Below, one piece after another: positions 14,801 through 17,800 of a stretch of 64,000 bases of DNA (positions within the stretch are counted from its first letter, which is position 1; each line of letters starts with the position of its first letter). Position numbers and translations under genes: made by a program. The stretch spans positions 38,690,001 through 38,754,000 of the forward strand of contig NW_024704742.1 of the NCBI RefSeq assembly GCF_018977255.1, read 5' to 3'. The notes below the pieces were generated by a model. The model did no database searches. It was given only the letters and a program-made list of their open reading frames with translations, and was not told the DNA's origin. The DNA is from Callorhinchus milii. Its lineage: Eukaryota.

Positions 14801-17800
14801 AACCCATGTGCCACTTGCCTTTACTCTCTCTGCTTGGCAAACGTCATGGCTACCTGCAAAGATATCCAACAAAAAGGGAGAAAAAAAAGAAAAAAACTAT
14901 CCATTAGTAAATAATAATAATAATCCTTGCATTTGATATAGCGCTTTATCACGTCATTGAGACGTCCCAAAGTGCTTCACAGAATATACTGTACAGTGAA
15001 TTGACTGTATATTTTCTGGACAAAATAGTAAAGAACCAAAGAAAAATGGATTAGGTCACTGAACTACTGGACTGAAGTGCATTATATTTATAATGCAACA
15101 ACAACAGCAAAATTATATTTGTATAGCGCCTTTCACAATGGGAGGACATCCCAAGGTTCTGGGATGCAAACCAAGGTCTCAAACAATAGGGGGATGATGC
15201 CCTGAGTGCCGCAGACTTGCGTTACTTTAATGACAATGCGTGGACCGAGGTTTATCCCTGAAGTAACCCCATGCAAATTTAGATCAAGAGAGGGTAGGGT
15301 AGGGGGTGGGAGAATGGGGGGACAGCTGGCCAAATCTGAGAGGTAAGTGGGGGAGTTGGCTGAGAACAGAAGACGACAGACCAGAGGGGTAGCTGGCCCA
15401 GCTAATGCTTGAAGATCTCCTTCTGAGTAGAATTCCTGCCAGTTTCTACTGAGCTTGCGCAGGCTCATGCCCACGTGCAGTGTGATTTTTCCCCCCAGGC
15501 TTCTCTTTGGGCAATGGGCGCAACTGTGGGACAGGAAGCTTGCTGGACTGCAGGAAATGGAGCAGAACTCATGGCCTGCGATTGGGAAGCACTCTGTGAC
15601 TCCTCTTGAGGTGTGGGGTGGGGGTAGAAGAGAAAGAGCATAGATACACCCTTGTGTATGGTTAACTGGAAATCTAATTGTAAAACGTGCATCAAAGGGC
15701 ACTCAACTCACAGACATACAGACCATCACACCCAAGATTCTTCAACACTGTTTACTGGACATATAGGGGACTACATAGTCATAACTCCAATTCTTGGATT
15801 CCCTTATTGCAATGTGTGTTGTGAACTTTCAGCAGCTTTAAACACTGCTATCACCCAAGTGTGAACTTCCTCATTTCAGTGCATGAGTAAACAGAACTGA
15901 GCAGGAGCATAGAGAGAATGTTTTCCTCCTTTTACACTGTCTATGATGAAAAAAGGGTGTCTTGCTTCACACTGTAACTGTTACTTAAACACAGCCGAAC
16001 CTCATTCCTGTAACTTCATCGCGGTTCCCCACCAAAACCTCTCAGAAAAATTAGCAATAATTGATGATGCTTTAAGTGTGTGTATACCAACCAGGTAATA
16101 TGTATTTTTTGAAGCTGTTATTCGAATTGTGATGCTTATCATATCAATTACTGTCACGAGACCCATTCAGCCTCTGCCAGTTCCAGCAACTCCACTGGAG
16201 TCAACCATTTAAGCCCAATATTCTGCATCATTTATATTCTTCCTCATCAAAACGTTCATCCATTTTAAATGTTGTGACTTCAGCCTCAATACTTGTGGCA
16301 TTTGTATCAAAGTGTTTCATATTCCAATAACCCTATCCTGATTTCACCATAAGTCTTTCAGTAACAATTCTGAGCTGTGTCCTATTACTACCCATTCACT
16401 GACCAGTGGAAATAATCTCTCATTATTTATTCTCTCAAAACCTTTCACAATTTTGAAGAACTCTATTGGATCCCCAGTTAAATGTCCCTGTTCCAGTGGA
16501 AACAGAACCAATTTTTCTCATCTTCATCGAGGATAAAAACTAATTCACACACTCTTGGTTGAAATTTAAAAAAATAAAACTAATTCAATTGATCAAAATT
16601 GTGAATTGTAAATGTAACATAAACCGGGCTTGGCTCAGGTGTAGCATGCTCGCCTAAATGTTGAAAGGAGTTTCTTCTCATGTCCTCGCTAACAATCCTA
16701 CAGATAATCTAAACATTCAGGTCAAGACAGTTTGAGGGACATTAACTGTGCTCAACAAAACTGCCACATTTGTCCACCAAAAAATAAGACTAAACTGGAC
16801 AGTAATTATTGTAAAGCATCTTAAGATAAGGTGCTATAAAAATACAACTTTTTTTCTTCTTTCTAAGGGAATGGATTCCCTCTCGGTACTACAGTTGCTA
16901 TGCAAAAAACTTGCGATCTCCGAACCTAACCCTTCTCACTGAGCCTGAAACCTTTGCCTATCTTTCTCTTTCAGATGCTGATGGGTGTGCAGCAATTCAC
17001 ATTACTTCAGCTTCTGTTCAGATTTCCAGCATCTGCGTTTTTAAAATTTGTTTATGAAAGCTTCTAACTTCATTCGATTTTTTTAAAAAAAAAGATTTGT
17101 TTTGAAACTGATCTTTGTTTCTGACGCAAGACCCTGCAAGTGACAGCTTTATTACATTGTGGTGTATAAGACCTGCCGGCCTGGTTACAAACCTCATGGC
17201 CTTTCCTTTGGGCATCTTGAATCAGCACATTCACTTCCTCTGCATAGGCAGTTCCAGGGTCAGGGTGATCCTCTCTGTACTTTCCTCTGTAAGTGTCTGG
17301 AGATGGTGCCTGAAACAGCAACGAAAATAAACATTACTTTATGTTGCGCAAGAAGCTGAGGCGTATAATTTCCATGGAGAGAAATAGAAGAAGTTACCAG
17401 GTGGTGGGGGTGGGGGGCGGGGGGTGTAAAAGAGCAGACGATTGAGATGAGAGTATAATAAGAGCATGTTTGCAGGGTTTCTTAATTGAGTAAAATAGAC
17501 AGGTTAGCTCAAAAGTGGAAACCTGGTAGGTAGTGCAGGTGTAACAAAAACAGAGAGAGCTGGGAACACTCAGCAGGTCAGGCAGGATCTATGGAGAAAG
17601 GAAAGTGAGTCAACATTTCGGGTCCTCGACCCTTCGTCAGAACGTTCTGATGAAGGGTCGTGGACCCGAAACGTTGACTCACATTCCTTTCTCCATAGAT
17701 GCTGCCTGACCTGCTGAGTTTTTCCAGCTCTCTCTGTTTTTGTTTCAGATTTCCAGCATTTACAGTATTTTGTGTTTTGACTAGTGCAGGTGTGATGGCT

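What the first reader, a model, noticed from the sequence alone, without database searches (positions are those of the whole stretch)
17531..17793. Palindromic mini-retroelement with a hammerhead-ribozyme core on both strands, inside ETNPPL intron 5
Seen: a 239-bp insertion with a 12-bp TSD, two 101-bp inverted arms with no spacer, and a 37-nt tail. The plus strand reads CUGAUGA-A-GGGUC/GUG/GACCC-GAAACGUU (17647-17675). The minus (pre-mRNA) strand reads CUGACGA-A-GGGUC/GAG/GACCC-GAAAUGUU. Known: Penelope-like elements carry minimal type I hammerheads with a palindromic helix III that cleave as dimers, and their insertions often have an inverted terminal repeat and a short tail. Inference: this is a non-coding, non-autonomous ribozyme-bearing family mobilised by a Penelope RT, a fragment of which lies at 53765-54090. 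In the host pre-mRNA, a ~100-bp hairpin would compete with the ribozyme fold.
Basis: partly seen in the sequence, partly recalled or inferred. Interest (0 to 1): 0.8.

Follow-up and report, generated by a model that had tools for sequence, protein, structure and literature searches.

The report
Dead Penelope retroelement end, inverted pair
This 239-base insertion in an intron of the ETNPPL gene is an old fold-back copy of the tail end of a Penelope-like jumping gene, carrying that group's known minimal hammerhead ribozyme motif in each arm; it is a correct catch of an already described kind.

Summary
Window 17543-17781 is a 239-bp insertion between 12-bp target-site duplications. It has two 101-nt inverted arms with no spacer and a 37-nt tail on one side. 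Each arm reads CUGAYGA, one extra A, a 5-bp helix II, then GAAAYGUU.

It belongs to a family with 3279 first-look candidates in a ~0.99-Gb genome. An intact 34-nt motif has 461 exact matches, against 0 for the reversed control.

The repeating unit is a single arm of about 100 nt, with or without the tail, not the palindrome. Of 35 copies sampled by their 3' end, 19 are single units and 16 are head-to-head pairs. The pairs have unique junction fillers and independently truncated arms. All 54 of 54 pairs classified carry exactly one tail.

Longer copies run upstream into a CT-rich stretch that follows the RT/GIY-YIG reading frame of an old Penelope-like element (PLE) lineage. The window's RT fragment (53702-54022) belongs to that lineage.

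The motif meets the published sequence descriptors of PLE minimal hammerheads. In this copy helix I is only 3 bp and the RNA folds into a ~100-bp hairpin, so self-cleavage is unlikely. The genomic copies show no extra conservation of the catalytic core.

Verdict: new member of a known kind, of modest interest.

The parts
17531..17542 (.). left target-site duplication (TAGTGCAGGTGT)
   Evidence: exact 12-nt direct repeat flanking the insertion.
17543..17643 (-). inverted arm without tail (the unit reads in sense on the minus strand); its outer end is the inner RT-start position ('site A')
   Evidence: inverted repeat I1; outer end constant in 30 copies; the tail-less arm of a one-tail pair.
17608..17643 (-). 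minimal hammerhead motif of the minus-strand arm: GUU, CUGACGA, A, GGGUC/GAG/GACCC, GAAAUGU, U17, then GACU. The predicted cut lies between 17612 and 17611.
   Evidence: Positions 15.2-16.2 are U.G here (a CpG-decay variant). Cleavage not tested.
17644..17744 (+). direct arm (unit in sense on the plus strand)
17644..17679 (+). minimal hammerhead motif of the plus-strand arm: GUU, CUGAUGA, A, GGGUC/GUG/GACCC, GAAACGU, U17 (17675), then GACU
   Evidence: This place is one of the 461 exact matches of the 34-nt family motif (C1:38707647-38707680 = window 17647-17680).
17745..17781 (+). 37-nt tail between the two presumed RT start positions. Both end in a T-rich ..TGTTTTTGTT / ..GTGTTTTG.. word.
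   Evidence: Craig 2021 and Frangieh 2024 describe a 30-40-bp PLE tail.
17782..17793 (.). right target-site duplication
17309..18072 (-). host intron (764 nt) of an ETNPPL-type gene that contains the insertion
   Evidence: joint 17308/18073 in 4 of 4 runs; exon match to PDB 6TOR.
56698..57192 (-). second family copy in the window: an inverted pair of another subfamily with 261-267 nt of unrelated filler between the arms, one tail, and a 14-15-bp TSD
28039..28132 (-). third copy: an inverted pair with both arms heavily and unequally truncated at the centre (81 and 57 nt missing), one tail, and a 16-18-bp TSD
53702..54022 (-). fragment of the RT of the old PLE lineage ('PLE1'), open for 106 codons
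   Evidence: ORF; 150 related places, 65-79% identical to the closest; relatives align to RT residues 250-577 of the intact 825-aa PLE.

Best explanation
This is a dead-on-arrival insertion made by the reverse transcriptase/GIY-YIG endonuclease of an old Penelope-like element lineage ('PLE1'). Only the terminal RNA module was copied. That module runs from the first nucleotides of the element's minimal hammerhead, through about 70 nt, to the internal RT start positions.

Two cDNAs of this module were made, one from each nicked target strand. One started after the 37-nt tail and the other before it. [quoted passage not shown] The result is a spacer-less inverted repeat with one tail, flanked by a 12-bp TSD from staggered nicks.

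Shown here:
- the anatomy of the insertion;
- family membership;
- a monomeric unit;
- per-insertion junctions;
- the one-tail rule;
- colinearity with PLE1 coding sequence;
- agreement of the motif with the published PLE minimal-hammerhead descriptors.

Inferred:
- priming on both strands, taken from in-vitro work on an Anolis PLE;
- template jumping at the junction;
- a ribozyme that is inert in this copy, because helix I is 3 bp and the arms pair into a ~100-bp hairpin in either transcript.

In the host pre-mRNA the insertion is simply an intronic hairpin. The intron is spliced out normally.
For: Family size:
- 3279 first-look candidates; all 40 scored are full length at 85-100% identity.
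- 461 exact matches to the intact 34-nt motif, against 0 for the reversed control.

The unit is a monomer:
- In 35 copies chosen only by their 3' 80 nt, 19 are single and 16 are inverted pairs.
- Single units have TSDs directly at (G)TTCTGA or at the tail-less end.

Junctions are made per insertion:
- The 30 full-length pairs carry centre fillers of 0-20 nt. These are mostly unique, and many are short duplications of nearby arm sequence.
- In the sample taken by 3' end, the two arms are truncated independently, for example 2/12, 37/2, 24/39 and 81/57 nt.

One-tail rule:
- 10 of 10 pairs in a sample chosen by motif only have exactly one tail, as do 14 of 14 and 30 of 30 in the other two samples.
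- Single units are 15 with tail and 12 without; 3 of 40 were unclassified.
- Ten pairs were checked by eye.

TSDs:
- Found in 43 of 105 loci, 8-17 bp long. The shifted-boundary control gave 2 of 105.

Link to PLE1:
- 5 of 11 PLE1 RT loci of 3.2 kb contain arm or extension sequence.
- In L040, a 280-codon frame is followed within about 70 nt by the hammerhead arm and tail on the same strand. That frame aligns to the intact PLE's thumb (E 6e-4) and GIY-YIG motif (48% identity, E 4e-4).
- In L048, a GIY-YIG-like stretch is followed by the CT-rich extension.
- In L034 and L035, a 5'-truncated PLE1 body lies head to head with a short arm plus tail.

Same design in an intact PLE of this genome:
- That element has an 825-aa ORF with RVT_1 (E 9e-12) and GIY-YIG (24.1 bits, cut-off 22.6), in 3.0-kb tandem arrays.
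- It carries CUGAGGA, one extra nucleotide, a 6-bp helix II, GAAACGUC and a helix I of about 7 bp, immediately 5' of its ORF start.

Literature:
- Cervera & de la Pena 2014 (PMC4209133; I read parts 1 and 2 of 4 of the text) list the min-HHR traits and mention paired motifs on opposite strands.
- Craig 2021 (PMC8557442, passages) describe an adjacent inverted 5'-truncated copy and a 30-40-bp tail at one end.
- Frangieh 2024 (PMC11167929, main text) report that both strands are cleaved and extended, that two RT start sites bound the tail, and that the HHR lies about 100 nt upstream and is not needed for insertion.
Against: - No Rfam hammerhead model matches the region even at E<=10. RF00163 finds nothing over its cut-off in the genome, though only 73 of about 128,000 candidates were scored. 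This is expected for motifs without helix III, but it means the ribozyme call rests on a descriptor, not a scored model.
- Across 109 arms the 11 core positions are no better kept than the rest (0.943 against 0.957). Only 31 of 92 arms keep an intact motif. The copies therefore give no selection signal, and nothing here shows cleavage.
- Helix I is 3 bp in the short form and 4 bp in the long form.
- About a third of units (12 of 35) end within a few nt of the first core nucleotide. Plain random 5' truncation does not explain this. It needs a discrete RNA 5' end whose origin I could not establish.
- No full-length PLE1 was recovered, so colinearity comes from deleted or truncated copies.
- Priming on both strands is taken from another species' element in vitro.
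Confidence: 0.85

Rival explanations
1. The element belongs to a dedicated SINE-like, non-autonomous lineage. A short RNA of about 100-137 nt has its own transcription start at the first nucleotides of the hammerhead core and is copied in trans by PLE enzymes.
For: There is a discrete 5' end at (G)TT-CTGA in 12 of 35 copies sampled by their 3' end, and in about 27 of 40 motif-selected arms. Copy number is high. At least two subfamilies share the same 5' end. The literature treats short PLE-dependent hammerhead elements as a SINE-like class (PMC8969392 passage, Li et al. 2026 preprint, Results).
Against: The sequence is colinear with the PLE1 3' end. Long forms grade into PLE1. No Pol III-type or tRNA-like head is seen: the Rfam scan at E<=10 gives no tRNA in 17300-18000. 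Short arms occur head to head with genuine PLE1 bodies in the same insertion (L034, L035). The same 5' end would also arise if PLE1 mRNA starts there and RT initiates at the nearby start sites.
Confidence: 0.2
2. The family is propagated as a palindromic master, or the palindrome arose after insertion by a DNA-level fold-back or duplication event. In this view it was not formed from two cDNAs.
For: The 40 best genome hits are all full palindromes with constant outer ends. Long palindromes are known to suffer central deletions, which could mimic variable centres (general knowledge, not tested here).
Against: That sample was biased by the palindromic query. In samples taken without regard to overall form, most copies are single units with their own TSDs. 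Centre fillers are largely unique and include templated patches and unrelated inserts of 30, 140 and 261 nt. Exactly one tail is present in 54 of 54 pairs.
Confidence: 0.07
3. The element is a MITE or foldback DNA transposon with 100-bp terminal inverted repeats.
For: It has long inverted arms, a TSD and a small size.
Against: TSD length varies from 8 to 17 bp. The one-sided tail is asymmetric. Single-arm copies have TSDs. Truncations lie at the centre, not at the ends. The element is colinear with a retroelement ORF.
Confidence: 0.02
4. The element is a non-LTR retrozyme: a tandem hammerhead unit that self-cleaves and circularises.
For: It has a type I hammerhead-like core and a PLE association.
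Against: There are 0 exact head-to-tail junctions (tail followed within 40 nt by the core) in the genome. No tandem copies appear in any of the 105 loci inspected. The units end at RT start sites, not at the cleavage site.
Confidence: 0.03
5. The hairpin is a host microRNA or other functional hairpin gene.
For: Plant and animal miRNA-precursor models give the best Rfam scores on the hairpin, for example MIR5048 at 62.8 bits and MIR533 at 43 bits.
Against: All of these fall far below their gathering scores (160 and 80 bits) and match any long perfect hairpin. The hairpin is a by-product of a repeat present in thousands of copies.
Confidence: 0.02

Closest known systems
Minimal hammerhead ribozymes (min-HHR) of metazoan Penelope-like elements (Cervera & de la Pena 2014, PMC4209133)
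   Same: It has the CUGANGA and GAAA boxes, an unpaired nucleotide between A9 and G10.1, the G10.1-C11.1 pair, and no helix III loop with a palindromic ACGU at 15.1-16.1. Helix I is short. There are thousands of dispersed, mostly single motifs, some paired on opposite strands 100-700 bp apart. The motif sits next to a PLE ORF.
   Different: Helix II is 5 bp; the paper reports 6-8 bp for most families. In the short form helix I is only 3 bp, because the unit starts at the core. The two motifs here are about 30 nt apart across a spacer-less palindrome. The paper does not mention this host group: the terms 'shark', 'Callorhinchus' and 'chondrichthy' had 0 occurrences.
Canonical PLE insertion unit with an adjacent inverted 5'-truncated copy and a 30-40-bp tail (Evgen'ev & Arkhipova 2005 as cited in, and Fig. 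2 legend of, Craig et al. 2021, PMC8557442)
   Same: It has an inverted 5'-truncated partner, a tail at one end only (37 nt), a TSD, and extreme 5' truncation.
   Different: Here both partners are truncated to about 100 nt, so no ORF or pLTR is left. About a third of units stop at one discrete position rather than at random.
PAc (Poseidon of Anolis carolinensis) in-vitro mechanism (Frangieh et al. 2024, PMC11167929)
   Same: The hammerhead lies about 70-100 nt upstream of two adjacent RT start positions that bound the tail. The structure is consistent with cleavage and extension of both target strands. Units are not cut at the ribozyme site, in line with unprocessed RNA being the template.
   Different: In vitro, no start-site difference between strands was seen. 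In these genomic pairs the two arms always differ, with one tail in 54 of 54. The RT start words here are T-rich in the RNA sense; the paper describes an AC-rich stem-loop.
Non-LTR retrozymes and the Schistosoma Sm-alpha type SINE-like hammerhead elements (Li et al. 2026 bioRxiv 10.64898/2026.07.22.740005, abstract and Results read; Sm-alpha recalled and cited in Cervera 2014)
   Same: They are short, non-coding, PLE-related hammerhead-bearing repeats in high copy number.
   Different: No head-to-tail tandems were found, and helix III is absent. The unit boundaries are RT start sites and a 5' end at the core, not ribozyme cleavage sites.

Membership tests
PLE minimal hammerhead (min-HHR; Cervera & de la Pena 2014) | Catalytic boxes CUGANGA and GAAA in type I order | tested here: met
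   Both arms carry them. The majority sequence of 109 arms keeps them. There are 461 exact family matches against 0 for the control.
PLE minimal hammerhead (min-HHR; Cervera & de la Pena 2014) | [quoted passage not shown] | tested here: met
   An extra A follows CUGAYGA in both arms (ins=1). The intact PLE of the same genome has an extra C.
PLE minimal hammerhead (min-HHR; Cervera & de la Pena 2014) | G10.1-C11.1 pair closing a stable helix II | tested here: met
   GGGUC/GACCC forms 5 bp, and it is the only helix that the single-arm folds keep.
PLE minimal hammerhead (min-HHR; Cervera & de la Pena 2014) | No helix III loop; palindromic 15.2-16.2, so that helix III forms only between two units | tested here: met
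   The plus arm reads A-C-G-U then U17. The minus arm reads A-U-G-U (a wobble, CpG-decay variant).
PLE minimal hammerhead (min-HHR; Cervera & de la Pena 2014) | Helix I of about 4-5 bp flanking the core and the cleavage site | tested here: inconclusive
   The short form has 3 bp (GUU/GAC). The long form has 4 bp (AGUU/GACU). No further pairing exists.
PLE minimal hammerhead (min-HHR; Cervera & de la Pena 2014) | Self-cleavage as a dimer or with protein help | not testable with these tools
   The RNA data were assembled contigs, which cannot show RNA ends.
Rfam Hammerhead_1 (RF00163) and the other Rfam hammerhead models | Score at or above the family's gathering threshold | tested here: not met
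   No hammerhead hit at E<=10 in 17300-18000. The best genome hit for RF00163 was 22.4 bits against 34, with only 73 candidates scored.
Penelope-like element insertion unit | Variable-length TSD from staggered nicks | tested here: met
   12 bp here. Across the family, 8-17 bp in 43 of 105 loci, against 2 of 105 in the control.
Penelope-like element insertion unit | Adjacent inverted 5'-truncated copy and a 30-40-bp tail at one end only | tested here: met
   the tail is 37 nt, and 54 of 54 pairs have one tail.
Penelope-like element insertion unit | RT with C-terminal GIY-YIG endonuclease ORF | tested here: not met
   This copy has no ORF. Related loci show the module directly after an RT-thumb/GIY-YIG frame. 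The intact PLE of the genome has RVT_1 plus GIY-YIG. This copy is therefore a fragment of a PLE, not an element.
Non-LTR retrozyme | Head-to-tail tandem units, each with a hammerhead | tested here: not met
   0 exact tail-to-core junctions within 40 nt genome-wide. None appear in the loci inspected.
MITE / foldback DNA transposon | Terminal inverted repeats with a TSD of fixed length, and symmetric ends | tested here: not met
   The TSD is 8-17 bp. The tail is one-sided. Single-arm copies have TSDs.
tRNA-derived SINE | tRNA-like (Pol III) head | tested here: not met
   No tRNA match at E<=10 in 17300-18000, although the same library finds five tRNA-like hits elsewhere in the window.

The most novel reading that the evidence does not exclude
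The family may record the PLE integration mechanism in vivo. Every inverted pair has exactly one tail (10 of 10 in the motif-chosen sample; 54 of 54 overall), while single units split 15 with tail to 12 without. A third to two thirds of units start within a few nucleotides of the first ribozyme core base.

This fits a model in which one dimeric RNP primes on both target strands from the two adjacent start sites of a template. Use of the two sites would be mutually exclusive within one event.

The short form would then be the run-off copy of an RNA that begins at the hammerhead. That RNA could be the 5' end of the PLE mRNA with RT starting at the nearby sites, or a dedicated mini-template. In either case the ribozyme would mark the RNA's 5' boundary and RNP-binding module rather than act as a processing site.
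Probability: 0.3. Interest if true: 0.55.

Novelty: new member of a known kind. Interest (0 to 1): 0.3.

Why it matters
As a single locus it is ordinary: a decayed PLE end in an intron that is spliced out normally.

As a family it is a clean natural data set. It has thousands of very short units with sharp ends, in single and paired forms, and could be mined to test how Penelope-like elements integrate. Open points include priming on both strands, the two RT start sites, template jumping at the junction, and the origin of the tail. It could also help show what the minimal hammerhead is for, which the literature read here still leaves open.

It also shows that these motifs escape the Rfam hammerhead models. 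Genome annotation by covariance models will therefore miss them.

Tried and rejected
- **Rfam.** An E<=10 scan of the region gave only sub-threshold miRNA and other hairpin models. A window scan at gathering gave five tRNA-like hits and no ribozyme. RF00163 on the genome gave nothing over its cut-off.
- **Pfam on fragments.** Pfam found no family for the window's RT fragment or for the two ETNPPL exon pieces. It also found nothing for the PLE1 frame of L040, so PLE1's endonuclease call rests on a pairwise alignment to the intact PLE.
- **PDB sequence search.** The 825-aa PLE gave no match.
- **First tail classifier.** My first script reported pairs with two tails. Reading ten of them showed that it had mistaken flank or TSD sequence for a tail. 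A stricter classifier replaced it.
- **Splicing idea.** The long form has a polypyrimidine tract and CAG directly 5' of the core, so I considered that the discrete 5' end is a 3' splice site. I rejected this as an explanation. Short units carry no exon-1 sequence, and the deletion in L040 ends 25 nt upstream of the core, not at the AG.
- **Ribozyme-cleaved template.** Units do not pile up at G1.1, and only isolated copies start near it.
- **RNA runs.** No RNA holder was listed on record; the runs are guessed to be RNA and are kept as contigs. Laying four of them showed the splice joint and many family-like contigs. It gave no information on RNA ends, strand, cleavage or editing, because the listed base differences are family variants from other copies.
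- **Third PLE group.** My simple scan found no canonical motif upstream of the ORF in L091.
- **Earlier-findings look-ups.** Look-ups by place and by sequence returned nothing.
- **Literature.** Searching 'Callorhinchus', 'Penelope' and 'hammerhead' (at least 2 of 3 terms; 106 papers, 15 listed) found no listed paper holding the first term. I do not know the species, so this says little. bioRxiv supplements (Li et al. 2026) are closed and may list families from a cartilaginous fish.
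Full report
**1. The observation**

- A 239-bp insertion (17543-17781) sits between two exact copies of TAGTGCAGGTGT.
- It has two arms of about 101 nt that are 92% complementary with no spacer.
- A 37-nt tail lies on the right only.
- Each arm, read 5' to 3' from the centre outwards, carries CUGAYGA, one extra A, GGGUC/3 nt/GACCC, GAAAYGUU, then GACUCAC.
- The whole stretch folds into a nearly perfect hairpin: -177.8 kcal/mol, z -23, with 0 of 200 shuffles as good.

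The host context was also checked.
- RNA contigs of 4 of 4 runs join 17308 to 18073 with minus-strand GT..AG ends.
- The exon just upstream matches human ethanolamine-phosphate phospho-lyase, PDB 6TOR, at E 3.6e-7.
- The insertion therefore lies in a 764-nt intron of an ETNPPL-type gene on the minus strand, and that intron is spliced out. I did not verify the intron number.

**2. It is one copy of a large family**

- The genome holding the window (about 0.99 Gb, 1762 contigs) gave 3279 first-look candidates for the 239-bp query. All 40 scored were full length at 85-100% identity.
- A 34-nt version of the motif, with degeneracy only at CpG-decay positions, has 461 exact matches (236 forward, 225 reverse). 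The reversed control has 0.
- Two more copies lie in the window: 56698-57192 and about 28039-28132.

**3. The unit is one arm; the palindrome is made at insertion**

An alignment of the 30 best hits shows constant outer ends and a constant tail. The centre is variable, with 0-20 nt of filler. The fillers are mostly unique, and many are short duplications of neighbouring arm sequence.

That sample was biased by the palindromic query, so I drew two other samples.
- **Sample A:** 35 copies chosen only by the last 80 nt, that is distal arm plus tail.
- **Sample B:** 40 copies chosen only by an intact core motif.

In sample A, 19 copies are single units and 16 are inverted pairs.
- Several single units have TSDs of 8-14 bp directly at (G)TTCTGA.
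- Six single units continue upstream into a shared CT-rich extension, which I call the long form.
- In the pairs the two arms are truncated independently at the centre (for example 2/12, 37/2, 24/39 nt; 81/57 in the window's 28-kb copy).
- Some pairs enclose 30, 140 or 261-267 nt of unrelated sequence.

In sample B, tail-less single units with their own TSDs are common.

A stricter classifier gives the following counts.
- Sample B: 10 pairs, all with exactly one tail; 15 singles with tail; 12 singles without; 3 unclassified.
- Sample A: 14 pairs, all with one tail; 21 singles. The pair count differs because this classifier requires the distal 45 nt of both arms.
- The 30 biased hits: 30 pairs, all with one tail.

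A first, looser script had wrongly reported two-tailed pairs. Reading ten of them by eye corrected this.

If each arm of a pair took a tail independently at the singles' rate (15/27), ten of ten one-tailed pairs would have a chance of about 0.001. This is my own arithmetic.

TSDs of at least 8 nt were found in 43 of 105 loci, with lengths 8-17 bp. The shifted-boundary control found 2 of 105.

**4. Link to a Penelope-like element**

The window's ORF at 53702-54022 (minus) has the KIHK..PGRPIVS stretch that I recall as typical of PLE RTs. Pfam gives no hit for it.

Used as a query, it finds 150 places in the genome, in two main groups.
- **PLE1:** an old, degenerate group, 65-79% identical to the query.
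- **Intact elements:** about 35% identical, with open frames up to 825 aa, in roughly 3.0-kb tandem arrays on small contigs.

[quoted passage not shown] This is the domain order that defines endonuclease-bearing PLEs.

Arm or extension sequence lies within 5 of 11 PLE1 loci of 3.2 kb. At the family's density, about 1% would be expected.

Colinearity on one strand is seen in three loci.
- **L040:** a 280-codon frame is followed within about 70 nt by the hammerhead arm and tail. The frame aligns to the intact PLE's thumb (E 6e-4) and GIY-YIG motif (48% identity, E 4e-4).
- **L048:** a GIY-YIG-like stretch is followed by the extension.
- **L034:** the RT is followed about 0.9 kb later by the extension.

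In L034 and L035, a 5'-truncated PLE1 body lies head to head with a short arm plus tail. Short arms therefore arise in the same events as genuine PLE1 cDNAs.

No full-length PLE1 was recovered, and all three colinear copies carry deletions.

**5. The ribozyme motif**

Cervera and de la Pena (2014, PMC4209133; I read parts 1 and 2 of 4 of the text) define the PLE minimal hammerhead by:
- the two catalytic boxes;
- the G10.1-C11.1 pair;
- palindromic 15.2-16.2 with no helix III loop;
- a short helix I (4-5 bp).

They also report low activity that depends on dimers or cofactors. They note pairs of motifs on opposite strands 100-700 bp apart and thousands of single motifs attributed to truncated PLEs.

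The motif here meets the four sequence criteria.

The intact PLE of the same genome carries the same design with different helices. It reads uuuucac-CUGAGGA-C, then a 6-bp helix II, then GAAACGUC|GUGAGAA, immediately 5' of its ORF start. That is between-family covariation, but from only two families.

The weak points are these.
- Helix I is 3 bp in the short unit and 4 bp in the long form.
- Single arms show no thermodynamic signal (z about 0).
- No Rfam hammerhead model matches.
- In 109 arms the core is no better conserved than the rest (0.943 against 0.957), and only 31 of 92 arms have an intact motif. This is what neutral decay of dead copies predicts, and it gives no evidence of function.

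Nothing here shows cleavage. The only RNA data were assembled contigs, which cannot show RNA ends.

In this particular copy, either transcript pairs the sense motif with its antisense copy in a ~100-bp hairpin. I therefore regard its ribozymes as inert.

**6. How it most likely arose**

Frangieh et al. (2024, PMC11167929, main text read) studied an Anolis PLE and showed the following.
- The protein cleaves and extends both target strands.
- Reverse transcription starts at two adjacent internal sites.
- The sequence between those sites is the genomic 'tail'.
- The hammerhead lies about 100 nt upstream.
- Ribozyme mutants insert normally.

Craig et al. (2021, PMC8557442, passages) describe the adjacent inverted 5'-truncated copy and the tail at one end as PLE hallmarks.

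The family fits this account. Two cDNAs of the terminal module are made, one per target strand. One starts after the tail and one before it. Each runs to the template's 5' end or stops short. They are joined head to head with small, partly templated fillers.

This mechanism is inferred, not shown. The structures are also what a snap-back of one cDNA stopping at the inner start site would give.

**7. What remains unexplained**

About a third of units in sample A (12 of 35) stop within a few nucleotides of the first core base. So do about two thirds of the arms in sample B, though that sample requires the core to be present.

Random 5' truncation does not predict such a pile-up. Units do not pile up at the cleavage site either.

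The simplest idea is an RNA that begins there. It could be the 5' end of the PLE1 mRNA, with RT starting at the nearby sites, or a dedicated short template. I could not test this.

**8. Novelty**

The kind is in print: minimal hammerheads in PLE ends, and inverted truncated copies with one tail.

Earlier notes of this scan on other genomes reached the same verdict for similar 'fold-back' copies. These are AI notes, not independent evidence.

I rate it a new member of a known kind. The family-level regularities (the one-tail rule and the discrete 5' end) are the only parts that might repay further work.

Noticed in passing
L044-L047 (genome contigs C1063, C888, C1200, C162): An apparently intact Penelope-like element lies in 3.0-5.2-kb tandem arrays. 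It has an 825-aa open frame with RVT_1 and GIY-YIG, and its own minimal hammerhead directly 5' of the ORF start. Many identical copies sit on small contigs, so it may have been active recently.
   Followed up: partly
L091 (C745:23501-28500), minus strand: A third PLE-like group has a 789-aa open frame, about 33% identical to the window's RT fragment. My simple scan found no canonical hammerhead in the 5 kb, and none was seen in the ~180 nt printed upstream of its ORF start.
   Followed up: partly
long-form copies, e.g. L053 with L086 (E053 positions about 1640-1705): Directly 5' of the hammerhead core, the long form has a polypyrimidine tract ending in CCCCAG, which looks like a 3' splice site. 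Cervera & de la Pena 2014 note that the intron of Drosophila virilis Penelope ends at the 5' end of helix I.
   Followed up: partly
window 17696-17781 (+) and the same place in other copies (e.g. L040 119-247, minus): An ATG about 50 nt after the core opens a frame that stays open through the distal arm and the tail. By analogy with PAc, this could be the start of the PLE1 ORF.
   Followed up: no
window 54515-56470 (-): A 651-codon open frame of a LINE-type reverse transcriptase lies between the PLE1 RT fragment and the second family copy. It is unrelated to the finding.
   Followed up: no
window 25019-25074, 29658-29724, 34909-34980, 38801-38872, 57907-57977: Five tRNA-model hits over the Rfam threshold are probably heads of tRNA-derived SINEs. 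The bases just after three of them give weak matches to part of the arm (15-28 nt, 78-93% identity, E 0.5-1.8), which may be chance.
   Followed up: no
window 56833-57094: 261-267 nt of unrelated sequence are enclosed between the two arms of the second family copy. They may have been captured by template switching during insertion.
   Followed up: no
window 17400-17427: A G-rich run (GGTGGTGGGGGTGGGGGGCGGGGGG) lies in the same intron, about 110 nt from the insertion.
   Followed up: no
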